Shown here in pieces: positions 1 to 29,486 of a DNA stretch of 29,615 nt. A program made the translations under genes and the position numbers. The notes under the pieces are model-generated. The model had not been told where the DNA came from, did no database searches, and saw only the letters and a program-made list of their open reading frames with translations. This stretch comes from an uncultured Gammaproteobacteria bacterium. Its GTDB lineage: Bacteria; Pseudomonadota; Gammaproteobacteria; JACCXJ01. Each line of letters starts with the position of its first letter. Within the stretch, counting starts at the first letter, position 1. Location of the stretch: the NCBI GenBank assembly GCA_963764725.1, contig CAVXTM010000008.1, positions 1 through 29,615 on the forward strand, given 5' to 3'.

Positions 1-7
1 GTTAGGG
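1..7 (-). other. Probable R'' box (CCCTAAC) of an attC site truncated by the window edge
   Basis: Minus strand reads mgtE stop TAG, 8 nt, then CCCTAAC at the window edge. Position and YYYAAC form match an attC start; the rest is not visible. Confidence 0.5.
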
Positions 8-15
8 GGCCACCT

Positions 16-966
16 CTATCGGACCACTGCTGCTGCAAGGGCGAAATAGATGAGGATGGACAGCAGATCCTGGATGACCGTTGCGAGGGGTCCGCTACCG
101 AAGGCCGGGTCGCGCCCCGAGGCACTGAACAACCAAGGGAGCAGCATTGCTGCGAGAGTGGCCGTGGAGCATGCCGCGAACATAGCAAGTCCTACCGCCA
201 GTGCGATGGAGGCATCTCCCCACCGCCACCAGACGAGCGGACCGGCGATCGCAGCCAACGTGAAGCCGATCACGAGGCCTGCAAGCAGCTCGCGACGGAT
301 CATCCGACGCATTGTGACACCGACGGATAGACCCCGCACCACGATCGTCTCCGTCTGAGTGCCAACGGCATCAGCAAGGTACACGATCCCGGGTATGAAG
401 AACGCCAGCATCACCGTCTCTTGCAGATGGCTTTCGAAGCGACCGACGAAGTCCGCAGATAGCAGCGCTCCAGCGAGGCCCACGAGCAGCCACGGAAGGC
501 GGTGACGGAAGCGGCGCTCCACCGTTTCCGTGCTCGTGGACCTGGCCTCCGAGGTGCTCTTCAGGAACCCTCCGAGACGTGTCAGGTCCTCCTCGTGTTC
601 AGCGAGCAGGATCACAAGGAGCCGCTGGGGTGGGATGATGCCGACGAAGCGCCCATCCGCGTCCACCACCGGCAGCGCGGTCTCCTCGTTTCGCACGGCC
701 CGCCACGCGGCAACCTCCTGATCGACACCGGGCGAGACAACAGGAACCTCGCGATCCGCCAGGTCGCCGACTAGAGAGTCATCAGGTGCTGTGAGGAGCG
801 CTTCTATCCTCAGGATTCCGAGGAACTTGCCGTCCTCCTGCACGACGATATGGCTGGCGGTGTCGAACTCCCGGCCCACCAGACCGCGTCGCGCCTCGCC
901 TGCCGTGGTCGCGGGAGATACCAGCGGGACCTTGGTACTCGCGTGTTCGGCGGCGGTCTCACGCAT
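16..966 (-). CDS. mgtE: MgtE-family magnesium transporter (CBS pair + MgtE membrane domain), probable second gene cassette
   Basis: CBS motifs (LPVVDADGRFVGII), RLPWL, GTQTETIVVRGL and DPAFGSGPLATVIQD. The ORF-track start at 990 lies inside the attC, so ATG 966 (or GTG 975) is preferred. Confidence 0.88.
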   Translation of the reverse strand: MRETAAEHASTKVPLVSPATTAGEARRGLVGREFDTASHIVVQEDGKFLGILRIEALLTAPDDSLVGDLADREVPVVSPGVDQEVAAWRAVRNEETALPVVDADGRFVGIIPPQRLLVILLAEHEEDLTRLGGFLKSTSEARSTSTETVERRFRHRLPWLLVGLAGALLSADFVGRFESHLQETVMLAFFIPGIVYLADAVGTQTETIVVRGLSVGVTMRRMIRRELLAGLVIGFTLAAIAGPLVWWRWGDASIALAVGLAMFAACSTATLAAMLLPWLFSASGRDPAFGSGPLATVIQDLLSILIYFALAAAVVR

Positions 967-978
967 CACCGGCACGTC

Positions 979-1068
979 GACCAACGCCACGCTTCAGGCG
1001 CGCCTGGAAGCCGAAGCGACGTTAGGAGCGCAGGCTGTAAGGCGTCGCCCTGCAAGCGATTGTTAGGC
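979..1068 (-). other. attC integron cassette recombination site (90 bp)
   Basis: Minus strand: R'' GCCTAAC, 5-nt spacer AATCG, L'' CTT(G)CAGG, then L' CCTGAAG, spacer CGTGGC and R' GTTGGTC. L'' pairs with L' leaving the canonical extrahelical G, and the stem continues (CG-A-CGCCT/AGGCGCG). The upstream gene's TAA lies within R''. Confidence 0.88.
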
Positions 1069-1599
1069 ACTGCGCTCTGGCGCAAACCAGGCTTCGACAA
1101 GCATACGGTGCTTTTCCGGCACGGCCTCTCCGGCCAGCACGGCCCAGTTGTTTTCAAACCCCAGGGGATCTGAGCTTTTAATGCGAAACCGCCGCATGGC
1201 AGTCTCCGCAACCGCCCTCTGGCGCGTTCGCAGCCAGTAGGCATGCTGCTCACGCACATACGTCGCGACGTAGCCGCTCGGCACGATGAAGAACCTCGAC
1301 AAGTGCTCGACTCCGCGGAGCGCGACAAAGCAATAGAATAAATTCGCATCGACCACGTGCCCGTGTTTCGCACTCATCGGCCAGCCATAGCAAGGCTCGT
1401 TCGAGAACAGCGATTCGTGACGTGGGCCACGGTCGGTCGTCTTGACTTCAATTTTGAACAACTGATTCAACCGTGCGTTCGACACGAGAATATCGACACC
1501 CTTTGTGTTCGCAAGTGTCAACGAGGCTACAAGGCCACGTTGCACGAGCTGCGCAAGAACGTAGAATTCTCCGGCCAAGCCAATCTGTGTGTTGTCCAT
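1063..1599 (-). CDS. PD-(D/E)XK-superfamily nuclease-like protein, first gene cassette (about 985-1618)
   Basis: GLAGE...GVDILV...KIEVKT matches the E...D...ExK catalytic layout. Bounded by G/TTAGGC upstream and its complement GCCTAAC at the stop codon. Confidence 0.75.
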   Translation of the reverse strand: MDNTQIGLAGEFYVLAQLVQRGLVASLTLANTKGVDILVSNARLNQLFKIEVKTTDRGPRHESLFSNEPCYGWPMSAKHGHVVDANLFYCFVALRGVEHLSRFFIVPSGYVATYVREQHAYWLRTRQRAVAETAMRRFRIKSSDPLGFENNWAVLAGEAVPEKHRMLVEAWFAPERSA

Positions 1600-1612
1600 G
1601 GCTTTTTCAAAT

Positions 1613-1619
1613 GCCTAAC
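1613..1619 (-). other. attI-like crossover core G/TTAGGC at the head of the cassette array
   Basis: GTTRRRY core 13 nt before the ATG, exactly complementary to R'' of the following attC. The upstream sequence is AT-rich and not attC-like. Confidence 0.65.
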
Positions 1620-1633
1620 TAGAATTCGATCCC

Positions 1634-1722
1634 GTTTATACATATAGAAGCAGTTTATACTTTTGTAAACTTGTTTATATACATAGTAACCTTCGTGCGA
1701 GCGAGTTTATAGATATATTAAC
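1634..1722. repeat. Four 18-bp quasi-palindromic boxes of the form GTTTATA-N8-A(A/G)C
   Basis: GTTTATACATATAGAAGC (1634), GTTTATACTTTTGTAAAC (1653), GTTTATATACATAGTAAC (1673) and GTTTATAGATATATTAAC (1705), in an AT-rich island within GC-rich DNA. Confidence 0.8.
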
Positions 1723-1728
1723 CCCGCC

Positions 1729-2111
1729 TCACGCCTGGTTGCTCATGACGAACTGTATGATTCTGTTATCGAGGCCGAGTTTAATTACCGTCTCGTAAGG
1801 GAGCTTCCAAAGCCTTTCTTGCGGTTGCCATTGGCCGCCGGCCGCTTTGACCGTCTCTCTGAGCTCGGCTTCGCGATAGTGTATTCGGACCAGCACCGCT
1901 CCGACGGGCGTCGGATCGGGTGCTTTGCGGGGCGGCATGCGTAGGCCGTCGATCCAGGCTTCTTCATCCACAATCAACTCAATGGTTTTGTAACGCTTGC
2001 GCTTGACCTTGTCATAACGATAGCGGACGCAGACGAGGCGGTCGCCGTATTGCGTCGCGAGTCCCGTCTCGTTCCTTTTTGACCGGGTTTGAGTGTCACT
2101 CTGACATCCAT
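1729..2111 (-). CDS. Small basic hypothetical protein (about 127 aa) with one frameshift near 2062; C-terminus resembles DUF5710
   Basis: GGAG RBS 6 nt before ATG 2111. Reads MDVRVTLKPGQKGTRR, frameshift, then LATQYGDRLVCVRYRYDKVKRKRYKTIELIVDEEAW...VRIHYREAELRETVKAAGGQWQPQERLWKL. The ORF track shows only the 3' part (1729-1977). Confidence 0.7.
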
Positions 2112-2177
2112 AGGTTGCTCCGTGTGGGCGATGAGCGGGTCCGCTGTCGGACGGATTAGGCTCCGCCCCGCTCGGCC

Positions 2178-5100
2178 CTAATGAAAATCCCTCGATTGCG
2201 TGCTCAAGCGGCCCAGGAGATCGGTATGATCCTCAAGCTTGCGGGCGAGCACATGCACCACCTCCCCCTCGCGTTGCACCTCGCCGGTGACGCCGAGGAG
2301 GCGAGAGCCCAGCAGCTCTTTGCGTTGCCGATCGACGAGACTGCTCCAGACGATGAGATTGAGGTAGCCCGTCTCGTCTTCTAGCGTGACGAAGACCACC
2401 CCGGTCGCGGTCCCGGGGCGCTGGCGAGTGATGACGAGCCCCGCGGCGCGGACAGGCTCGCCGTGTGGGAGCACGAGGATCCGTTCGGCGGTCAGAAACG
2501 CGAGCCGTGCGAGCTTCGGGCGCAGGAGCGCCAAGGGGTGCCGTCTTAGCGTGAGACCCAGACTTCCGTAGTCGGCCACGATCGCCTCGCCCTCGGTGGG
2601 GCGGCGCAGTAAGGGCGAGGCTTCTTGGACGGTGGTGGCGGCGAGTAACGGCGTCGGTGCTTCGATGCCGAGCACGGCCCAGTACGCCTGAGGCCGCTGG
2701 CCGGCGAGCTGCACCAGCGCATCGGCCGCAGCGAGTGCCTCGAGGTCGCGGCGATTGAGTTCGGCACGCCGTATGAGATCCTGGACATCCATGAAGGCCT
2801 CCGTTGTGCGCGCTTCCACGAGACGCTCGGCACCGCTCTTCGAAAGGCCCTTGACCAAGCGCAGCCCGAGACGAAGCGCGGGTTGAGCATTCGATCCCCG
2901 CTCCAGGGTGCAGTCCCAGGCGCTGGCACCCACATCAACTGGACGCACCTCCACCCCGTGCCTGCGGGCGTCTTGCACGATCTGGGCGGGGGCATAAAAA
3001 CCCATGGGCTGGCTATTCAAAAGGGCGGCCGTGAAGGCCGCTGGGGCGTGACACTTGAGCCAGGCGGAGACATAGACCAAGAGCGCGAAGCTCGCGGCAT
3101 GGCTCTCGGGGAAGCCATACTCACCAAAGCCTTCGATTTGTTTATAGATCTGGCGGGCGAAGCGCTCCGAGTAGCCGCGCGCGCGCATCCCCTCGACGAG
3201 CCGGTGCTCGAAACCCTGGAGGCCGCCGTTGCGTTTCCAGGCGGCCATTGAGCGGCGCAAGCGATCGGCCTCGCCCGGGCTGAAGCCCGCGGCCACCATG
3301 GCAAGTTTAATGACCTGCTCCTGGAAGAGCGGCACCCCCAGGGTACGCCCGAGCACCTCGCGCACCTCTTCGCTCGGATAGCTCACGGGCTCGATCCCAT
3401 GCCGGCGGCGCAGGTAAGGATGCACCATCTCGCCTTGGATGGGCCCCGGCCGGATGATCGCGACCTCGATCACCAAGTCGTAGTAACAGGCGGGCTTGAG
3501 GCGCGGCAGCATGGCGATCTGCGCGCGGGACTCGATCTGGAAGACTCCCATGGTGTCCGCCCTTTGGATCATCGCGTAGGTTGCGGGGTCCTCGGGGGGC
3601 ACGGTGGCCAATGTGAGCTTCTTTCCCTCGAAGCCCTCGATGAGTTCGAAGGCGCGGCGGATCGCGGAGAGCATCCCGAGGCACAGGCAATCGACCTTGA
3701 GGAGCCCGAGCGCATCGAGATCATCCTTGTCCCATTGGATCACGGTGCGCTCGGGCATGGCGGCATTGCGTCCTCGGCGCGCCAAGCAGGGCCGCCTTCG
3801 GCCCCGGCCAGCTTTGGCTGGCGCTCGTACGAGCCCCTGGCCCTGGCTCTCTCGATGGGAACCAGGCGAGCCAGGGGACCGCGGGAGATGATCATCCCGC
3901 CCACATGCTGGGAGAGGTGGCGCGGGAAGCCCACGAGATCTCCAACGAGCTTGGTTAATCGGGCCAGCAGCGGATTATCGGGATCGAACCCCACCTCGCG
4001 CAGACGCTCGCGCGCGAGTCGTTTCCCATCCCACCAGTAGATGTTCTTCGCCAGCCGCTCGACTTGCTCGAGACTCATCCCGAGCGCCTTGCCGACATCC
4101 CGGATCGCGCTCTTAGCACGGTAGGTGATCACGGTCGCGGCGAGAGCGGTGCGCTCGCGCCCGTACTTCTCATAGAGGTACTGGATCACCTCCTCGCGCC
4201 GCTCATGCTCGAAGTCGACGTCGATGTCGGGCGGCTCCTGGCGCTCCTTGGAAACGAAGCGCTCGAAAAGCATCTCCATGCGCGCGGGATCCACCTCGGT
4301 GATGCCGAGGCAGTAACAGACCGCGGAGTTGGCCGCGCTCCCCCGTCCCTGGCAGAGGATACCGCGGCGGCGGGCAAAGGCGACAATATCGTGGACGGTC
4401 AAGAAATAGCTCTCGTAACCGAGCTCGGCGATGAGTTGCAGCTCGTGCCCGATCTGTGCCGTGACTTTCGCGGGTACCCCAGCAGGCCAGCGCCGTTGCA
4501 TGCCCGTCTCGGTCAAATCCCTGAGATACCGGGCCGGCGTCTCGCCCGCGGGCACGAGCTCCTCGGGATATTCGTAGCGGAGCTCGTCCAAGGAGAATTG
4601 ACAACGCTCGGCGATGCGTATCGTCTCGGTGAGTAATTCGGACGGATAAAGCCGCGCCAGGACTTCGCGCCGGCGCAAATGACGCTCGCTGTTCGGATAG
4701 AGCGCATAGCCCGCCGCCTTAACCGTGGTCTTGAGCCGGATCGCCGTCAAGGTATCTTGCAAGGCACGGCGCTCGCGCACGTGCATGTGCACATCCCCCG
4801 CGGCGACGAGCGAAATGCCCGTCTCACGGCTCAGGGCAGTGAGCCTTTCGAGCCTCTCGCCATCGCCGCCCTCGCGCAGTAGCTCGACAGCGATCCAAAG
4901 GCGCTCGGGAAAGCGCCCGGCGAGCCAGCCGGCCTCGGTCTTGAGCCCTTGCAGCTCGTCCAAGCGCCGCCCCGGTAGCAAGAGAGCGAGGCAATGATCG
5001 AGCCCGGCGGCGATGTCCGCGCGTTCCAGCCGGTAGCCCCCCTTGGCCGCTCGCCGCCGCCCTTGGGTGATGAGCGCCGAGAGCCGGCCGTAACCCTCTC

Positions 5101-5356
5101 GATCTTGCGCCAGGAAGACGAGCCGCGGTCCGTCGAGGAACTTCGCCTCAGTGCCAATGATGAGCTTGAGGCCGCGGTCTTTGGCCGCGCTATGGGCCCG
5201 CACCACACCGGCAAGCGAACACTCGTCGGTCAGCGCAATCGCCGTGTAGCCGAGTCGCTGGGCTTCTGCCAGCAACTCCTCGGGGAAGGAGGCGCCTCTC
5301 AAGAAAGTGAAGTTCGAGAGGCAGTGAAGCTCGGCGTAGCAGGGCAAATCCGGCAT
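2178..5356 (-). pseudogene. dnaE2: Error-prone DNA polymerase DnaE2/ImuC, interrupted by an 83-bp insertion at 3768-3850
   Basis: [44 protein letters not shown] and the C-terminal SRDFH. ORFs 3740-5368 and 2178-3785 join as VPIE|NAAM when 3768-3850 is removed. Confidence 0.93.
3768..3850. mobile_element. 83-bp hairpin-rich insertion element inside dnaE2
   Basis: Exact removal restores the frame. Ends are homologous to 7510-7554. Internal palindromes or hairpins GCTCGTACGAGC, CCAGC-TTTG-GCTGG and GGCGCGCC. No clear target duplication. Confidence 0.75.
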
Positions 5357-5389
5357 GGGAGATAACAACCGAGCGCCGCTTGAACCTAG

Positions 5390-13666: not shown

Positions 13667-14249
13667 CTAGGGATCATCGGCGAGCAACGCCTCGATCTTC
13701 GCGCGCATTACGCGGAAGTCGTCGGTATCGGGCGCTAGTTTCCCGCCCAGATGCACGTGACGGATCACGCCGCGCCGATCGATGACGAAGCTGACGCTCG
13801 TCCACGACCGCTCGTGGCCATCGAGCCACCAGCGCTTCAAGGTCTGCCAGTCGGGATCCACGGCCACGGGGAAGCGAAACTGGTAGTGCTCGACGTAGCC
13901 GCGCACGGTCTCGAGATCGAGCGGCTCGGGGCCCTTGTGGTGGTACACGCCGATCACAACCAGGCCGCGGCCGCGGTACTCCCCATCGAAACGGTTCAGG
14001 GCCGGCGCGGTGGCGCTGCAGAACGGGCAGCTCGGAGCCATGAGCCAGCGCACCAGCACCACTTTGCCGCGCAGGTCCTCTAGCGCGAGCGGCTCGGAGT
14101 TGAACCAGTGATCGAGCTTCCAGCCGGGCGCGGGCCGGCCGATGAGACCGCTGAGGTCGTCGGTGGCCGGTGGGTCCGCGGTCGGGATGCAGAGGCTCTC
14201 GCGCATGCCGCGAGCAGGACGATGGGGAGGATCCAGCGCGTGGCACCAT
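13667..14249 (-). CDS. TlpA-like thioredoxin/redoxin, probable lipoprotein with a frameshifted 5' end
   Basis: LRGKVVLV..W...CPFC and VIDRRGVIR. A signal peptide with lipobox (WILPIVLLAAC) lies in an adjacent frame just after ATG 14249. Confidence 0.8.
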
Positions 14250-14764
14250 AGTAGCCCACGGCGGACTTGCGCTGAAGTGAGCGGCGAGGACAAGCCATGG
14301 CCAATATCACGCAAGGGCGATCCCTTTCACACCATTGGCGAGATCCCCCGCCATCCTCTACTTTGAGATCCTTCCTGGAGAATCATCTCACCGACTCGTG
14401 GCCAACCCGCGAGATAGTGATCGTAGCCCAAATAGGCATGCATGAATTTTTGGGAATGACAGGGCTTCGGCAAACGTTCCGATGGACGATGATATCACGC
14501 GGTGTTATGCTAGGTCGTTGAAAGTGATTGCCGGCGAGAAAACGGCCGGGCTGCTTGCCGAATCTGGCGCGCTACATCCTACGCTTCCTTCTCCAAGCTT
14601 CTACTCTGTAAAGGTATTCCGTCGGCGTGATTCGCGTTGGCGTGATCCCGCGAGGCGGAGCCCTTTCACGATACCAGTCGACCAACGACTGCGATGGTTG
14701 AACTCCTCCTCTGCCCGAGCCTTTGCCAAATGGAGTTCCCCTAGTAACTATACAGGAGATGACG

Positions 14765-15079
14765 ATGATGAAACTACTTTCCCTCAGTTCGGTATTGATA
14801 CTTACAGCGTTGTTCAGCCTCGATGGTTTCGGCCAGACAGAGAGCGCGACTGGAGCTGAACCTGAGATCTCCGGCCCGTCGACCATGGATTTGTGCACAG
14901 AAGTGATGACACTGAATGCCCAACAGCTCGAATCCGACGAGGCAGAAACGAAATTATTCATGGTAGGCTGCTCAGCGGGCGCCAAGTATGGCTCGGCAGC
15001 GTGGCAGTGCGTGCTCACGGCGATGCAACGCGGGGGGTCGTATCTCAAGGCTACGGATGAATGTTTCCCGAAAGGATAG
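14765..15079 (+). CDS. Small secreted Cys-containing hypothetical protein
   Basis: AGGAG RBS at 14754-14758, signal peptide MMKLLSLSSVLILTALFSLDGFG, four Cys. Confidence 0.65.
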   Translation: MMKLLSLSSVLILTALFSLDGFGQTESATGAEPEISGPSTMDLCTEVMTLNAQQLESDEAETKLFMVGCSAGAKYGSAAWQCVLTAMQRGGSYLKATDECFPKG

Positions 15080-15272
15080 TTGTTTCGCAGACTGAACGCA
15101 GCCCTGTATTAGAAGTTTCGGTTGCAGGCTTCTGGCGGGAATGAAGGTTGCCGCTAGGATGAACGAGCTAGTGTCCTTAGGCTTTGGGTCAGCGCGCCAG
15201 ATCTCGGCGCGGCCAAGTTAATCTAGGCATTGTCCGGCACGGCCCCCTGGGCCACATACTTCACTTTCGACA

Positions 15273-15929
15273 GTGCATCCCGTACATAAATTTGTCCGTA
15301 GACGTCCGAATCTAAGCATTTCGATCGTCGTGGGTGTCTTTGCCGGGCTGCTGCTTCCTTCGGTGTGGAATCCCATTACACGGGCACTGTACGCCTGGAA
15401 TATCGCGGTATGGCTTTATCTGGTATCGATGGCATTTCTGCTGATGGGCGTGAGTCACGCCAGGGTGCGCGAGATAGCAGAGGAGGAGGACGAGAGCGCG
15501 GTGGCGATATTGGCAATCCTGTCTGTCGCCGCGATAGCCAGTCTTGCGGCGATTGCCATTGAACTTTCCGTCTTGAAAGACCTGCCCCTAACCTTTCGTG
15601 TGGCCAAATACGTCTTAACGGGATCCACCATCATTGGCTCGTGGTTTCTGATCGCCGTTCTCTACACCGTCCACTATGCGCATTTGTTCTACAGGTCACC
15701 GCCGGGTAACCGGGCATTGCAGTTTCCGGATAAAGGGCAAACCCCGGACTATTGGGATTTCATGTATTTTTCGTTCACGATCGCCGTTGCCGCGCAGACA
15801 TCGGACATCGTCATCATGTCGCATTCGCTGCGCAAGACCGTGCTGGCGCAATCGATTCTCAGCTTTTTCTTCAACGTCGCCATTCTTGGCCTGTCGATCA
15901 ATATCGCTGCCAGTCTGGTGAATTCCTGA
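15273..15929 (+). CDS. DUF1345-family membrane protein
   Basis: HYAHLFY, PDYWDFMYFSFTIAVAAQTSD and SFFFN motifs. Confidence 0.88.
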   Translation: MHPVHKFVRRRPNLSISIVVGVFAGLLLPSVWNPITRALYAWNIAVWLYLVSMAFLLMGVSHARVREIAEEEDESAVAILAILSVAAIASLAAIAIELSVLKDLPLTFRVAKYVLTGSTIIGSWFLIAVLYTVHYAHLFYRSPPGNRALQFPDKGQTPDYWDFMYFSFTIAVAAQTSDIVIMSHSLRKTVLAQSILSFFFNVAILGLSINIAASLVNS

Positions 15930-16144
15930 AAGCAGAAATCACACCGAAATTCGTCCAATGGACCGTTTGCTCTGGCCTGGGTCTCTCGGATCTGGCCAGG
16001 ATGGCGCGAGGGGTTGCAAGGCGTGAAGCTTGCGGCTTGTGGTTCGATACAGTTCACCCCACTTGACTGGCTGCACCCCAGCTGAAGAACGCAGCCAAGA
16101 TGAGGACCATGGCGATGATAAGGGCGACGACAGAGGACGCCGAG

Positions 16145-17854
16145 ATGCGTTACGATGTGTTCATCTCCTACAGTCACGGAGCCGATAGCCGGACCGCCGC
16201 GCAACTCCAACGCGCCCTGCAAAGTATAGCCAAACCGTGGTATCGCCTACGTGGCATGCGCGTTTTCCGGGACCAAACGGATTTGTCAGTGGCACCAGAG
16301 GGATGGCCGGCCATCCAATCGGCACTCGCAGAATCTCGGTTCTTATTGTTGATGGCATCCAAACAGGCTGCGGGCTCCAAATGGATCGCTAAAGAACTCG
16401 CCTACTGGCGCACGAATCGCTCCACTGAAACACTACTGATCGCGCTGACGGATGGTGACATCGTTTGGGACGACAGCAGAGGCGACTTCGACTGGGAGCG
16501 GACGACGTCATTGCCAAAGCAGTTATCCGGCGCGAGTCGAAGTGAACCGTTTTGGGCCGACCTTCGATGGACGAGTGAGCAGCAAATATTGACGCTTCGG
16601 AATCCGGAGTTCCTGAGTTCCGTTGCCAAGCTGGCGGCGCCGGTACGTAATCTAGATGTCGCGGAACTTGTCAGTGAAGACCACAGGCAGCATCGTCGCA
16701 CGTTGCGTGCGGCATACGCCACGGGGGTGGCATTGATAACAATCCTGGGAATCGCCTTTTGGCAGTTTCAGTCGAGACTTGCGGCGATCGACCGAGAACG
16801 CGATCAACACGTTTTGGCATCCGTGGCGCGCGCGTACCAGGCACTGTCCGTCGATCCACTTAAAGCCGTTGACGAGGCGCGCGAGGCACTGACGGTGAAA
16901 GAGACTTCGGAAGGCAAGCAGGCCCTACGAACTGCCATGGAAGTCGGCCTGCGCCGCCGCGAGAACCGCCAGGACGAAAGGGAAGTACTTGGCTCAGGTG
17001 TCGGTTACCTGATGGAACGATGGCGACGCGGTGATGTTTTCACGAAGCTGCGAAATGACGGGCGTTACGCACTGGTGGCGAGCGAAAGGGGCAAAGATGG
17101 TCCCAATCCGCCGGGCAACGTTTACATGATCGGCATGGACAACCTGCGCACGAAGGAACTGCAGCCAGGCGATGCAGCCAAGGGTCGGCGTGTCGAGTAT
17201 ATGGGATTCAGCTCGTCAGGAAATGAAATATTCGTGGCTCGCCAGTTCTATCTGGACGTCTACGATCTCGAGGGGAATCGGACTAAGAGTGCGCAGCTTG
17301 AATACCACGCAAAACCGACCCATTTGATCGCTGGCATGTTCGGTTCCTTCGTCCTCGTCGGGGACACAGTCGGCCATGTCATGTTGGCGGACACATCATC
17401 CGAGAAGAGACCGCAATTGAAGGGCGGTCTGTACCCGGACGCCGCTTTGTTCATCGAAAGTAACTCGGAGGCCAACCGTGCGATCGTGGTCTTCGAGTCT
17501 GGGCGAGTCCAGTTCGTCGTCATCAATGACCCGTCCTCCCCGGCTGAGTATGAGCTCGGGACGAAGGGCACGATTCACGCTGCCTTCATTCCACGACCCC
17601 ACACGGGTCGTTTTCTCACGGCGAGTCAAACCGGTCAGATTGATGTGTGGCGATTTGCCGACGGCGCCCCCGTGAAGCTCGCATCGTTCAACCATGGAAC
17701 GACGCCGGTTGGGCTCGCAAGCTTCTCCGGCGACGGGGCGCGAATAATCTCCTTAAGCGACGACGACGTCTATAAGGTCTGGGATATCAGCAAACGGGAA
17801 TTGGTCGTTTCATATCCTTGGGGTATCCGTTCGACGAATCCCGTTCTCCATTGA
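16145..17854 (+). CDS. TIR-domain protein with a TM helix and a C-terminal WD40-like beta-propeller
   Basis: YDVFISYSH, VFRD and SKWIAKEL form the TIR domain. Hydrophobic AAYATGVALITILGIAFW follows, then WD-like blades (GQIDVW, VYKVWDI). GAGG RBS before ATG 16145; the ORF is open from 16100. Confidence 0.85.
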   Translation: MRYDVFISYSHGADSRTAAQLQRALQSIAKPWYRLRGMRVFRDQTDLSVAPEGWPAIQSALAESRFLLLMASKQAAGSKWIAKELAYWRTNRSTETLLIALTDGDIVWDDSRGDFDWERTTSLPKQLSGASRSEPFWADLRWTSEQQILTLRNPEFLSSVAKLAAPVRNLDVAELVSEDHRQHRRTLRAAYATGVALITILGIAFWQFQSRLAAIDRERDQHVLASVARAYQALSVDPLKAVDEAREALTVKETSEGKQALRTAMEVGLRRRENRQDEREVLGSGVGYLMERWRRGDVFTKLRNDGRYALVASERGKDGPNPPGNVYMIGMDNLRTKELQPGDAAKGRRVEYMGFSSSGNEIFVARQFYLDVYDLEGNRTKSAQLEYHAKPTHLIAGMFGSFVLVGDTVGHVMLADTSSEKRPQLKGGLYPDAALFIESNSEANRAIVVFESGRVQFVVINDPSSPAEYELGTKGTIHAAFIPRPHTGRFLTASQTGQIDVWRFADGAPVKLASFNHGTTPVGLASFSGDGARIISLSDDDVYKVWDISKRELVVSYPWGIRSTNPVLH

Positions 17855-28457: not shown

Positions 28458-29486
28458 CTACGCGTTGACCGAAACCCGCGCGCGGTAACCCTCGTCTCGC
28501 CTCAGGAGCGCCCAGATCGCCCGAGCGCTCTTGTTGGCCACCGCCACCGCTGCGATGTTCTTGTTGCGCCGTTTGACGAGGTCGTTGATCCACCGGCTCT
28601 GGGCGTCGGTCTTCTTGGCCGCCGCCTTCACCACGGACCGCGCCCCGTGGATGAGCAGAGTGCGCAGGTAGGTATCGCCCCGCTTGCTGATCCCCAGGAG
28701 CTTGGGCTTGCCCCCGCTCGAATCCTGCCGCGGCACGAGCCCCACCCAGGCCGCGACCTGCCGCCCGGACTCGAACGCTCGACCATCACCGACCGAGGCG
28801 ACGGCCGCCGTCGCCGTGATCGGCCCTACCCCCGGCATCCGGCCAATCCTCTGGCACGCCTCGCTCGCATGGTAGAGCCCTTGGAGCTTGACGCCGTAGG
28901 CCCCCACTTGCCGGTCCAGCTCCAGGACCTGCCGGTGGAGATCGGCAAACAGCTCTCGCGCCAAGCCACTCAGGCCGTTCTCGCCGTCTTCCAAGATCTC
29001 CGGCAGGCGCTTGCGTACCTGCGCCAAGCCCTGACCGATGACGATGCCATACTCGCCTAACAAACCCCGCAGCCGGTTTGCCTGCGCGGTGCGTTCCTTT
29101 ACCAACCCACTGCGTACCCGGTGCAGCGCCAGAATGTCTTGGCTCTCGGTGCTCTTCACCGGCACAAAACGCATGTTCGGGCGCCCCACCGCCTCGCAGA
29201 TTGCCTCCGCGTCGTTCTTGTCATTCTTGTTCCCCTTCACGTAGGGCTTGACGAACTGCGGGCTGATGAGCCTGACCGTATGCCCGAGCTTCCCCAGCTC
29301 CCGCGCCCAGTAGTGTGCGCCGGCGCAGGCTTCGATCCCTACCACGCAAGGGTCGAGGTTGGCGAAGAACGCCAAGACCTGCCCTCGCCTGAGCGACTTG
29401 CGCACCGCGACCTTCCCCTTCCCGTCCACACCGTGTGCCTGAAAGACATTCTTTGCAATGTCTAACCCGATTGTTGTAACGTTCAT
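28458..29486 (-). CDS. IS110-family DEDD transposase/recombinase
   Basis: IGLDIAK, GIEAC and KNDKNDAEAI (DEDD residues); PGVGP, GLVP...SSGG and KRGD.YLR. Confidence 0.96.
   Translation of the reverse strand: MNVTTIGLDIAKNVFQAHGVDGKGKVAVRKSLRRGQVLAFFANLDPCVVGIEACAGAHYWARELGKLGHTVRLISPQFVKPYVKGNKNDKNDAEAICEAVGRPNMRFVPVKSTESQDILALHRVRSGLVKERTAQANRLRGLLGEYGIVIGQGLAQVRKRLPEILEDGENGLSGLARELFADLHRQVLELDRQVGAYGVKLQGLYHASEACQRIGRMPGVGPITATAAVASVGDGRAFESGRQVAAWVGLVPRQDSSGGKPKLLGISKRGDTYLRTLLIHGARSVVKAAAKKTDAQSRWINDLVKRRNKNIAAVAVANKSARAIWALLRRDEGYRARVSVNA

What the first reader, a model, noticed from the sequence alone, without database searches (positions are those of the whole stretch)
1..2111. Integron-type cassette array with an attI-like head but no integrase; a small unknown gene and an operator array sit where intI is expected
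Seen: a canonical attC (979-1068), a first cassette with exactly complementary borders (G/TTAGGC at 1619, GCCTAAC at 1068), a second gene ending at another CCCTAAC, and an AT-rich non-attC head region. Established: integrons normally have intI next to attI, usually divergent. Here the neighbour is a co-oriented 127-aa basic protein, and no IntI lies in the 28 kb upstream. Inference: this may be a distinct cassette-capture platform (small gene + repeats + crossover site) served by an IntI in trans, rather than a decayed integron. This is my best candidate for an undescribed system.
Basis: partly seen in the sequence, partly recalled or inferred. Interest (0 to 1): 0.85.

Follow-up and report, generated by a model that had tools for sequence, protein, structure and literature searches.

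The report
Integrase-less integron head with relic platform gene
This is the front end of a gene-cassette array whose insertion site has no integrase beside it, and the broken small gene next to it belongs to a large unnamed family that sits just before such insertion sites in many bacterial phyla.

Summary
The order is dnaE2, a small gene, a 112-nt AT-rich site ending GAATTCTAG|TT, cassette 1 (178-aa ORF plus a 90-nt attC whose GCCTAAC complements GTTAGGC), cassette 2 (MgtE/CBS), then the next attC cut by the contig end. No intI lies on this contig. Four intI loci lie elsewhere in the genome, and one is intact.

The AT-rich site behaves as an attI. It occurs 2-4 times per genome in 6 of 8 congeners, at three conserved chromosomal places. 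Copies are 80% alike before the GTT and 26% alike after it. Metagenome contigs also diverge exactly there.

The small gene is frameshifted here. It belongs to an unnamed basic-protein family of about 3000 clusters. Its members lie 84-134 nt before an attI-type crossover. An integron integrase is directly upstream in 22 of 74 loci. Downstream attC-like sites are tenfold enriched. All 18 of 18 carrier genomes in a class sample also hold an intI, never adjacent.

Verdict: a real integron platform served in trans, carrying a component I did not find described. The protein's role is inferred (DNA binding at the repeats). In this genus the gene is decaying.

The parts
1..7 (-). CCCTAAC, the inverse core (R'') that opens the attC of cassette 2. 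It is cut off by the contig end.
   Evidence: Sequence. The contig start coincides with window position 1.
16..990 (-). Cassette 2 ORF, a short MgtE-type divalent-cation transporter with CBS domains. The listed GTG start at 990 lies inside the preceding attC. In-frame starts at 975, 969 and 966 are more likely.
   Evidence: Pfam MgtE 1.8e-21 and CBS 2.4e-13. Sequence.
979..1068 (-). attC of cassette 1 (90 nt): R'' GCCTAAC, L''/L' stem with one bulged G, R' GTTGGTC.
   Evidence: Metagenome contigs also cover 994-1087.
1063..1599 (-). Cassette 1 ORF, 178 aa, with no family assignment. The cassette spans 1618-985.
   Evidence: No Pfam or NCBIfam hit. Only PDDEXK_5 at E 0.24 and PADLOC TmtA at E 0.004.
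1613..1619 (-). Core site GTTAGGC. The inferred crossover lies between G1619 and T1618.
   Evidence: Exact complement of R'' at 1068-1062. The junction of conserved and variable sequence falls here in 17 copies. Loose ends of metagenome contigs pile up at 1613-1617.
1617..1728 (-). attI-type site (the 'module'), AT-rich, ending GGATCGAATTCTAGTT. Its last 14 nt fit the R-box consensus of attI sites that lie beside intI.
1634..1711 (-). Four direct TATAAAC repeats (1711-1705, 1679-1673, 1659-1653, 1640-1634) and one inverted GTTTAC (1670-1665). They are candidate protein-binding sites.
   Evidence: Three of the four are conserved in both module subtypes.
1729..2111 (-). Small platform gene, broken by a 2-nt insertion near 2062-2063. 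Intact relatives are 126 aa and basic.
   Evidence: (profile E 4.3e-42).
2178..5368 (-). dnaE2, the chromosomal flank. It is read as two overlapping ORFs in different frames (frameshift between 3740 and 3785). imuB (6826-5390) and a SulA-like imuA (7466-6849) lie upstream.

Best explanation
Window 1-2111, read on the minus strand, is the head of a sedentary integron cassette array. Its insertion site is a true attI-type site, but its integrase is encoded elsewhere in the genome.

Inferred mechanism:
- An IntI made from another locus binds the double-stranded site at 1617-1728. The intact intI at C15:164702-165643 is one candidate.
- IntI recombines the site at G1619|T1618 with the folded attC of a free cassette.
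- This puts new cassettes in first position, as in any integron.

The same site is kept at three chromosomal places in this genus: after dnaE2 plus the small gene, after an FtsX-type permease, and after ychF. Each copy heads a different set of cassettes.

The small gene just upstream is a decayed member of a large, unnamed family of basic proteins of 110-130 aa. In many phyla this family sits between intI, or the cassette promoter, and attI.

My inference is that the protein binds the lineage-specific AT-rich repeats between its stop codon and the crossover. It would then act as an accessory DNA-binding factor of the platform, either architectural for attI x attC recombination or regulatory for cassette transcription.

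What is shown: the anatomy, the multi-copy conserved site, the variable junction, and the family-wide linkage to IntI, attI and attC. What is inferred: which IntI acts here, whether the site is still active, and what the protein does.
For: Cassette anatomy:
- G|TTAGGC at 1619 and R'' GCCTAAC at 1068 are exact complements, and the attC is well formed.
- At the second genomic copy (C11:275381-275516), cassette 2 is likewise bounded by GTTAGGG and CCCTAAC.

The module is multi-copy:
- Three full copies end in GAATTCTAGTT in this genome, and that 11-mer occurs only there. There are also two partial copies.
- Matches were found in 6 of 8 other genomes of the genus. None were found in 0 of 6 genomes of other genera of the family, nor in 0 of 46 further genomes of the class.

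The junction:
- Across 17 copies (136 pairs), mean identity is 0.80 in the 40 nt before the GTT and 0.26 after it.
- In 14 full copies, 104 of 125 alignment columns are conserved in at least 12 of 14.

Orthologous positions:
- All six relatives' copies of one subtype follow a ychF flank that is 88-93% identical to this genome's ychF.
- Four copies follow the FtsX permease.

Population data, from contigs of four metagenome runs:
- Contigs cover 1605-2300.
- They break into unlike sequences at 1613-1617 (X3: 9 contigs; X4: 4; X6: 6). In X1, single contigs break at 1611 and 1616.
- Agreement among the loose ends is low (0.47-0.73).

Homology to attI:
- The last 14 nt, GTCGAATTCTAGTT, match attI ends that lie beside intI, such as GTCGAATTTAAGTT and GTCTAATTCATGTT.
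- The module is not a hairpin.

IntI in trans:
- One intact and three degenerate intI loci lie on other contigs. The C15 locus has its own attI and cassettes with similar attCs.

The small-gene family:
- 3010 cluster representatives at E<=0.001.
- 353 of 419 candidate genomic stretches were confirmed, and the best 80 were kept.
- The contig ends within 400 nt downstream of the gene in 31 of 80 loci, against 2 of 80 upstream.
- A strict R-box plus GTT pattern lies within 450 nt downstream in 23 of 75 loci. That is 0.84 per kb against 0.021 per kb elsewhere in the same loci.
- attC-like hairpins occur at 0.21-0.24 per kb downstream against 0.02-0.03 per kb upstream.
- IntI lies directly upstream in 22 of 74 loci, 15 divergent and 7 co-oriented. 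All 16 of 16 such neighbours that I scanned match TIGR02249.
- Five of the 13 divergent loci printed show a TTGACN, 15 nt, TATATAAT promoter-like match reading into the small gene.
- In a class sample the gene occurs in 18 of 400 genomes and IntI in 160 of 401. All 18 carriers have IntI.
- Median pI is 10.1.
- 7 of 20 members hit DUF5710. That domain is also fused to Rep_3 replication initiators (PMC11233732, passages).
Against: - No experiment exists, and no RNA evidence was obtained.
- The attI ends beside this genome's own intI genes (CATTACATGTT and CTACTTCATGTT) differ from the module's end. From recall, integrases tend to prefer their own attI.
- No single IntI type is shared by all module-bearing genomes. 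The acting integrase is therefore unidentified.
- The small gene is broken here. It is broken at a different place in G001. It is reduced to remnants or was not found in most congeners. It is intact in 1 of 9. Yet the module persists, so either the protein is dispensable or these platforms are no longer active.
- The exact inverse core of the first cassette was found downstream in only 5 of 16 copies, against 7.8% in a mismatched control. Only 1.5 kb was available per copy.
- The window's attC does not fold better than shuffles (z -0.6).
- The consensus scan found no sigma-70 promoter in 900-2300.
- The window holds only one complete attC.
- My attC scanner is crude and not strand-specific. 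It gave 501 hits genome-wide.
- Several supporting copies come from unpublished genomes (G001, G005, G007).
Confidence: 0.72

Rival explanations
1. Dead relic. The region is what remains of a once complete integron after intI was lost or moved away. The site and arrays are fossils that no integrase uses any more. Differences between species date from before the decay.
For: - The same gene-plus-site unit lies beside intI in 22 of 74 loci elsewhere, so a complete integron is the likely ancestor.
- The small gene is decayed in 8 of 9 genomes of the genus.
- Several intI genes in the genus carry stop codons.
- The resident attI ends differ from the module's end.
Against: - The module is conserved (104 of 125 columns in at least 12 of 14 copies), while everything after the GTT differs at orthologous positions in every genome.
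- No intI remnant lies beside any copy.
- Three separate chromosomal positions are each kept across species.
- In the class sample, 0 of 16 carriers have the gene beside intI, yet all 16 keep an intI. That points to a stable detached state, not random decay.
Confidence: 0.18
2. The AT-rich module is the end of another kind of mobile element (transposon, IS or miniature element), or a chance secondary (attG-type) hot spot. It is not an attI.
For: - It is multi-copy with a sharp boundary.
- Two copies in this genome are interrupted or partly duplicated.
- IntI can insert cassettes at non-att genomic sites (10.1101/2022.09.11.507474, passages).
Against: - Only one boundary is sharp. Upstream, the copies sit in conserved chromosomal flanks.
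- No transposase accompanies them.
- The boundary is G|TT followed by a purine in all 18 copies with sequence past it.
- The end matches attI ends beside intI.
- According to the passages read, attG sites lack conserved sequence. This site is conserved over 112 nt.
Confidence: 0.05
3. The small gene is simply a very common first cassette, and the AT-rich stretch is its unusual attC.
For: The gene is co-oriented with the cassettes and is followed by a GTT crossover. The AT-rich stretch holds short palindromes in many lineages.
Against: - The stretch does not fold end to end.
- Its last 14 nt are conserved in sequence across phyla, which attC ends are not.
- attC-like sites are at background level upstream of the gene (0.02-0.03 per kb).
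- In divergent loci, the 137-344 nt between intI and the gene holds promoter-like matches in 5 of the 13 loci printed, and no crossover-site candidate was noted there.
- In 7 loci the gene follows intI by only 29-170 nt in the same direction.
Confidence: 0.03

Closest known systems
Complete integron (intI, attI, Pc, attC cassettes), for example this genome's own C15 locus
   Same: - Cassettes are bounded by G|TTRRRY and attC.
- A double-stranded, non-hairpin insertion site sits at the head.
- The R-box sequence is of the same type as attI sites beside intI.
   Different: - No intI lies on the contig.
- The site is present in 2-4 copies per genome.
- An extra protein-coding gene and a repeat array sit before the crossover. 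The five intI-adjacent attI types seen in the genus have neither.
[quoted passage not shown] 2016, PMC4889954; passages read)
   Same: It is a cassette array without a nearby intI, in a genome that encodes IntI elsewhere. The passages say most CALINs have no intI pseudogene nearby and that half lie in IntI-encoding genomes.
   Different: CALINs are defined by attC sites only. In the passages read, no head site or associated gene is described. Here the array has a recognisable, conserved, multi-copy attI-type head and a family-specific gene.
attG secondary genomic insertion sites (Loot et al., 10.1101/2022.09.11.507474; passages read)
   Same: IntI inserts cassettes outside a classical integron, at double-stranded sites.
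   Different: The passages describe attG sites as very numerous and unlike att sites in sequence and structure. This site is one conserved 112-nt sequence, at fixed chromosomal places, with an attI-type end.
attI1 of class 1 integrons, with direct repeats DR1 and DR2 as extra IntI1-binding sites (recalled, not from a call)
   Same: Direct repeats lie upstream of the crossover box in a double-stranded site.
   Different: Here the repeats (TATAAAC) do not resemble the crossover box. They number four, and in other lineages they are replaced by other motifs, often palindromes. Which protein binds them is unknown.
DUF5710 (PF18974) domain proteins, including Rep_3-DUF5710 plasmid initiators
   Same: The C-terminal half of 7 of 20 family members matches DUF5710 (best E 1.6e-5). 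Both settings are DNA-related and involve repeats (PMC11233732, passages).
   Different: - The window's protein and P0002 give no Pfam hit.
- The N-terminal domain with the invariant YGDxLVCVRYRYD motif has no family.
- No structural relative was found.

Membership tests
Complete integron | An integron integrase gene next to the insertion site | tested here: not met
   No TIGR02249 match on contig C8. Matches lie only on C15, C7, C13, C12 and other contigs.
Complete integron | Cassettes bounded by attC sites, with the first 7 nt complementary to the inverse core | tested here: met
   GTTAGGC at 1619 against GCCTAAC at 1068. The attC at 1068-979 folds end to end.
Complete integron | A promoter (Pc) that reads into the cassettes | tested here: inconclusive
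   The consensus scan found none in 900-2300. In 5 of the 13 divergent loci printed, a TTGACN, 15 nt, TATATAAT match precedes the small gene.
attI site | It lies at the head of the array, with conserved sequence up to G|TT and variable cassettes after it | tested here: met
   17 copies, with identity 0.80 before the junction and 0.26 after. Metagenome contigs diverge at 1613-1617.
attI site | Sequence likeness to sites that lie beside intI | tested here: met
   GTCGAATTCTAGTT against GTCGAATTTAAGTT (L041) and GTCTAATTCATGTT (L068). The pattern is enriched 40-fold after the small gene.
attI site | Bound and recombined by IntI | not testable with these tools
   This needs a recombination or binding assay.
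attC site (considered for the AT-rich module) | An imperfect palindrome that folds into one hairpin pairing R'' with R' | tested here: not met
   MFE -7.6 kcal/mol, z -0.21, with no end-to-end pairing on either strand.
CALIN | At least two attC sites with no intI nearby | tested here: inconclusive
   One complete attC, plus the first 7 nt of a second at the contig end. No intI lies within the 29.6-kb contig.
Small platform-gene family (alignment A2) | Match to the family profile over its length in one open frame | tested here: not met
   The profile matches positions 16-117 at E 4.3e-42. Residues 1-15 lie in another frame, so this is a frameshifted member.
DUF5710 (PF18974) | Pfam match above threshold | tested here: not met
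   No hit for the window's protein or P0002, even at E<=10. 7 of 20 homologues do hit.

The most novel reading that the evidence does not exclude
The small basic protein is a dedicated attI-binding accessory factor. It defines a second, widespread class of integron platform: a portable unit of gene, repeat array and attI. This unit can work beside intI or far from it. It lets one integrase feed several arrays in one genome, and it is the origin of a share of the unexplained integrase-less cassette clusters (CALINs).
Probability: 0.3. Interest if true: 0.85.

Novelty: new variant of a known kind. Interest (0 to 1): 0.75.

Why it matters
Integron platforms are described as three parts: intI, attI and Pc. 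That is how the introductions of the papers I read state it. A fourth, protein-coding part would change that picture for environmental integrons. The evidence for one is its conservation across many phyla and its fixed place 84-134 nt before the crossover.

It also bears on two open questions:
- Where integrase-less cassette clusters come from. The passages read say 95% have no intI relic nearby.
- Which host or accessory factors chromosomal integrons need. The abstract of 10.1101/2020.11.24.395434 says the V. cholerae chromosomal integron is not active in other hosts.

Practically, the gene and the R-box give a sequence handle for finding attI sites, which current tools find only for classes 1-3. 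The intact protein can be tested with a simple binding and recombination assay.

Tried and rejected
Approaches that led nowhere:
- A genome-wide run of my hairpin-based attC scanner gave 501 hits and no clear clusters. It is too unspecific to census arrays.
- A MAFFT alignment of seven attCs was poor (41% mean column identity), so I built no covariance model.
- The promoter scan of 900-2300 found nothing.
- For the small protein, Pfam and NCBIfam gave no hit and PADLOC gave none.
- Foldseek against the PDB gave no match at E<=0.001 among 74 listed.
- The PDB sequence profile gave only a papillomavirus E2 DNA-binding domain at E 0.21. That is a lead at most.
- The ESM Atlas gave only unnamed clusters.
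- Complex prediction of an IntI with its neighbouring small protein (L075, alignments A3 and A4) returned no answer. I draw nothing from it.
- I could not assign the acting integrase. IntI types differ among module-bearing genomes, and the C12 fragment is equally close to two types.
- G177, a one-contig genome, was not a clean example, because an insertion sequence follows its small gene.
- In the look-up of sequencing runs, no run held half of the words. I did not lay the runs on record as RNA, and X6, which I did lay, is only guessed to be RNA. There is therefore no evidence on expression.
- In the four runs laid, 1088-1604 had no cover. I draw nothing from that.

Considered and rejected: the module as an attC, the module as a transposon end, and the small gene as a cassette (see the rival explanations).

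Literature:
- I found no description of a gene between intI and attI, or of conserved heads of CALINs, in searches of the held library. This does not exclude papers outside it.
The supplementary attI list of PMC4889954 and Figure S8 of 10.1101/2022.09.11.507474 (attG motifs) could bear on the comparison, and I did not see them.
Full report
**What is in the window**

The window is the whole of contig C8 of a 4.2-Mb, 19-contig genome. Everything in the finding reads on the minus strand. The order is:
- a SulA-like imuA at 7466-6849, imuB at 6826-5390 and dnaE2 at 5368-2178 (Pfam);
- a small gene at 2111-1729;
- an AT-rich stretch at 1728-1617, with GC 0.34 against 0.61 for the window;
- the core GTTAGGC at 1619-1613;
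- a 178-aa ORF at 1599-1063 with no family;
- a 90-nt attC at 1068-979;
- an MgtE/CBS ORF at 990-16;
- CCCTAAC at 7-1, where the contig stops.

The attC has R'' GCCTAAC, an L''/L' stem with one bulged G, and R' GTTGGTC. It folds end to end, although not better than shuffled GC-rich sequence (z -0.6).

GTTAGGC and GCCTAAC are exact complements. That is what the integron mechanism predicts for the two ends of one cassette.

The '127-aa protein' is two ORFs of 45 and 82 aa in different frames. Intact relatives have 126 aa (P0002, 97% identical). The window has two extra bases near 2062-2063. All four metagenome runs laid on the stretch lack these two bases.

**The AT-rich stretch is a multi-copy site with a sharp right-hand edge**

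BLAST of 1-2200 against the genome found further copies of 1612-1845. They lie at C11:275334-275516, C11:274929-275092, C11:9105-9217 and C11:16105-16144.

The 11-mer GAATTCTAGTT occurs three times in the genome. Each occurrence closes a full copy, and each is followed by different sequence: AGGC, GTGC and ATGC.

DNA matches outside this genome were found in:
- 6 of 8 other genomes of the genus, with 2-4 matches each;
- 0 of 6 genomes from other genera of the family;
- 0 of 46 further genomes of the class.

Of the 19 copies collected, all 18 with sequence past the edge diverge right after the GTT or its variant. Over 17 copies (136 pairs), identity is 0.80 in the 40 nt before the edge and 0.26 after it. 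In 14 full copies, 104 of 125 alignment columns are conserved in at least 12 of 14.

The copies occupy three orthologous chromosomal positions:
- After dnaE2 plus the small gene. This is seen in this window, in G001, and in the public contig L048. The record title of L048 reads 'MAG: Chromatiales bacterium'.
- After an FtsX-type permease, with only a remnant of the small gene's 3' end. This is seen in G000, G001, G005 and G006.
- After ychF. Six relatives have it, with flanks 88-93% identical to this genome's ychF.

Several of these genomes are marked unpublished (G001, G005, G007). The public ones alone still show each position in at least two sources.

**Cassettes follow the copies**

At C11:275516 the first cassette is closed by an attC with R'' GCCCAAC. 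That is 6 of 7 matches to the expected complement. The second cassette is bounded by GTTAGGG and CCCTAAC, which are exact complements.

In relatives, well-formed attCs whose R'' is the exact complement of the first core were seen in L023 and L027, as in the window. The exact inverse core was found downstream in 5 of 16 copies, against 7.8% in a mismatched control, with only 1.5 kb available per copy. This support is modest.

**Independent population evidence**

Contigs of four metagenome runs (cave, sediment and soil by their labels) were laid on 900-2300.
- They cover 1605-2300 and part of the attC.
- Their loose ends pile up at 1613-1617: X3, 9 contigs; X4, 4; X6, 6. In X1, single contigs end at 1611 and 1616.
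- Agreement among the loose ends is low (0.47-0.73), so many different sequences are joined at the crossover.
- Summed depth over the module is several-fold that over the small gene (X3: 13,871-16,255 against 978-3,510). This fits a multi-copy site.

**Is it an attI?**

The stretch does not fold as a hairpin on either strand (dG -7.6, z -0.21), so it is not an attC.

The genus carries at least six IntI types. Beside five of them the insertion site can be read, because sequence is conserved up to a GTT and then varies. Their ends are CATTACATGTT, CTACTTCATGTT, CTACTTCAAGTT, CTACTTTAAGTT and GTCGAATTTAAGTT.

The module ends GTCGAATTCTAGTT. That is 12 of 14 identical to the last of these, which comes from G001, an unpublished genome. 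It is also 11 of 14 identical to GTCTAATTCATGTT, which lies beside an IntI in an Acidobacteria contig (L068).

By position, by the junction and by sequence, the module is an attI-type site. IntI binding cannot be tested with these tools.

**Where the integrase is**

There is no match on C8. Elsewhere the genome has:
- an intact intI at C15:164702-165643 (496 bits against a cut-off of 265);
- a copy with a TAA stop on C7;
- a truncated copy on C13;
- a fragment on C12.

The C15 gene has its own attI and an array that starts with a HicB/HicA-like pair (named from my reading of the sequence; no family search was run). Its attCs are of the same general type. All 9 genomes of the genus have a match, and 8 of 9 score above the cut-off. 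No copy of the module lies beside any of them.

**The small gene is a platform gene of integrons at large**

This is the main new result. The family has no Pfam or NCBIfam model that hits this member.

Family size:
- The word-indexed search gave 143 homologues at E<=0.001 among 148 candidates.
- The profile search gave 3010 cluster representatives at E<=0.001, 1794 at <=1e-10 and 147 at <=1e-30.
- A scan of species-representative genomes confirmed 353 of 419 candidate stretches. The best 80 were kept as loci L048-L127. By their record titles they come from Gammaproteobacteria, Desulfuromonadales, Anaerolineae, Acidobacteriota, Nitrospirota, Methylomirabilota and others.

Findings in those 80 loci:
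1. The contig ends within 400 nt downstream of the gene in 31 of 80, against 2 of 80 upstream. Assemblies therefore break just after the gene, as expected at a repeated or strain-variable region.
2. Downstream lies an AT-rich stretch with lineage-specific direct and inverted repeats, such as TAGATGC/GCATCTA, GTTTCTA/TAGAAAC and TAGACA/TGTCTA. It ends in an R-box and GTTRRRY.
3. A strict pattern for that end is found within 450 nt downstream in 23 of 75 testable loci. That is 0.84 per kb against 0.021 per kb in the rest of the same loci. Most sites lie 84-134 nt from the stop codon, and the window's lies at 109 nt.
4. attC-like hairpins occur at 0.21-0.24 per kb downstream and 0.02-0.03 per kb upstream.
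5. Of the 74 loci with at least 1500 nt upstream, 22 have an IntI directly upstream. The matches are 59-68% identical to the C15 IntI. Fifteen are divergent and 7 are co-oriented at 29-170 nt. In 51 loci there is no recombinase match, and one has only a distant recombinase downstream. All 16 of 16 neighbours scanned match TIGR02249. The one member whose bit score was shown has 502 bits against a cut-off of 265.
6. Five of the 13 divergent loci printed show a TTGACN, 15 nt, TATATAAT match reading into the small gene.

Taken together, the gene is not a cassette. It sits between intI, or the cassette promoter, and attI.

**Co-occurrence without adjacency**

- In an even sample of the class, the gene was found in 18 of 400 genomes.
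- IntI was found in 160 of 401.
- All 18 carriers have IntI. By my arithmetic, ignoring relatedness, the chance of that is about 7e-8.
- In none of the 16 carriers outside the genus is IntI on the same contig within 100 kb. In the three cases on one contig, the two are 138 kb, 172 kb and 2.4 Mb apart.
- G294 is a clean example. The order there is a chromosomal gene, an intact small gene, six TAGACA/TGTCTA repeats, then CCGTCTAATACACT|GTTAGGT. A cassette follows whose attC opens with ACCTAAC, then two more attCs. IntI lies on another contig.

**What the protein may do**

- Members are basic, with median pI 10.1 over 20 sequences.
- The AlphaFold model (mean pLDDT 85.6) shows two small alpha/beta domains joined by a poorly predicted linker.
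- There is no structural relative in the PDB at E<=0.001.
- The C-terminal half matches DUF5710 in 7 of 20 members. That domain is also fused to Rep_3 plasmid initiators (PMC11233732, passages).
- The gene keeps its place before attI whether or not intI is near. Its job is therefore tied to the site or the array, not to intI expression.
- The intI-adjacent attI regions of the genus that lack the gene are less AT-rich (mean GC 0.47 for n=9, against 0.35 for n=23). That comparison is confounded by genome composition. The count of repeated 7-mers did not clearly separate the two groups: the most frequent 7-mer occurs 1-2 times in those nine and mostly 2-3 times in the 23.

I therefore infer that the protein binds the repeats. 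It would act as an architectural or regulatory accessory of the platform. This is an inference only.

**Evidence against, and the state of the gene in this genus**

- Only 1 of 9 genomes of the genus has an intact copy.
- The window's copy and G001's copy are broken at different places.
- A second copy in this genome, at C18:706499-706774, has a stop codon. It is still followed by an AT-rich stretch ending GTCCATATATGTTAGCC.
- G003, G006 and G008 gave no match.
- The module nevertheless persists in 7 of 9 genomes, counting this one.

So either the protein is dispensable, or these platforms have stopped working. The integrase that would use the module is not identified.

**Comparison with the literature**

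- The array would be called a CALIN. The passages I read say that 95% of CALINs have no intI relic nearby, that half lie in genomes with IntI, and that rearrangement or insertion at secondary sites may create them (PMC4889954).
- Secondary attG sites are described as numerous and unlike att sites (10.1101/2022.09.11.507474, passages).
- A Xanthomonas study states that CALINs can be mobilised in trans and notes their conserved positions (10.1101/2025.06.18.660453, passages).
- I found no report of a conserved gene between intI and attI, or of a conserved attI-type head for CALINs, in six searches of the held library. Papers outside the library and closed supplements are not covered.

**Verdict**

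The window shows an integrase-less integron head with a true attI-type site, kept in several copies per genome. It carries a decayed member of a widespread, undescribed platform-gene family.

I rate it a new variant of a known kind. The protein's function and the present activity of the site are still open.

Noticed in passing
window 3740-3785 (dnaE2, minus strand): dnaE2 reads as two overlapping ORFs (5368-3740 and 3785-2178) in different frames. In the related public contig L048 the two halves are in one frame. With the small gene, that makes two frameshifts within 2 kb of this contig.
   Followed up: partly
G000 contig C18:706499-706900: A second, degenerate copy of the small gene (39% identical, with an in-frame stop and no N-terminus). 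It is followed by its own AT-rich stretch ending GTCCATATATGTTAGCC. This is a fourth attI-type head of a different sequence type.
   Followed up: partly
L009 4940-5516 (G000 C11:274939-275515): The permease-linked copy is partly duplicated. First come a remnant of the small gene and the first ~60 nt of the module. About 290 nt of unrelated sequence with a hairpin follows. Then comes a second remnant and the full module.
   Followed up: no
L010 5105-12145 (G000 C11:9105-16144): In this genome the ychF-linked copy is split. A partial module directly follows ychF. About 6.9 kb of inserted DNA comes next, including a ParE-type toxin ORF (Pfam 2e-16) with an upstream partner. The full module follows that. 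In six relatives the module follows ychF directly.
   Followed up: partly
window 6849-2178 upstream of the platform: The platform lies directly downstream of imuA-imuB-dnaE2 and in the same direction, with only 66 nt between dnaE2 and the small gene. From recall, this operon is SOS-induced, as are many intI genes. Read-through could link cassette expression to DNA damage.
   Followed up: no
window 16100-17854 (+): A 584-aa protein with an N-terminal TIR domain (TIR_2 1.4e-8, ThsB_TIR 3e-5) and weak C-terminal beta-propeller matches far below the curated cut-offs. It is a defence-like architecture outside the finding.
   Followed up: no
window 28458-29486 (-): An IS110-family transposase sits at the other end of the contig. 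The contig is thus bounded by repeats on both sides: an attC array at one end and an IS at the other.
   Followed up: no
G000 C7:99992-100918; L037, L044: One IntI type is inactivated repeatedly in the genus. It has an in-frame TAA in G000 and in G003, and two stops in G008 (unpublished). Its attI end (CTACTTCATGTT) is still conserved, with different cassettes after it.
   Followed up: partly
alignment A1 (window 979-1068, L009, L031): Seven attCs from three arrays of this genome share a G(C/G)GA(C/T)GC motif in the first arm, about 17-23 nt after R''. This hints at one common cassette pool.
   Followed up: no
L063, L075, L077, L114 (intI / small gene spacer): Near-identical promoter-like sequence, TTGAC(N16)TATATAATGATTTTG, in four contigs whose record titles read Anaerolineae (three) and Chloroflexota (one). 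It lies between the divergent intI and the small gene.
   Followed up: no
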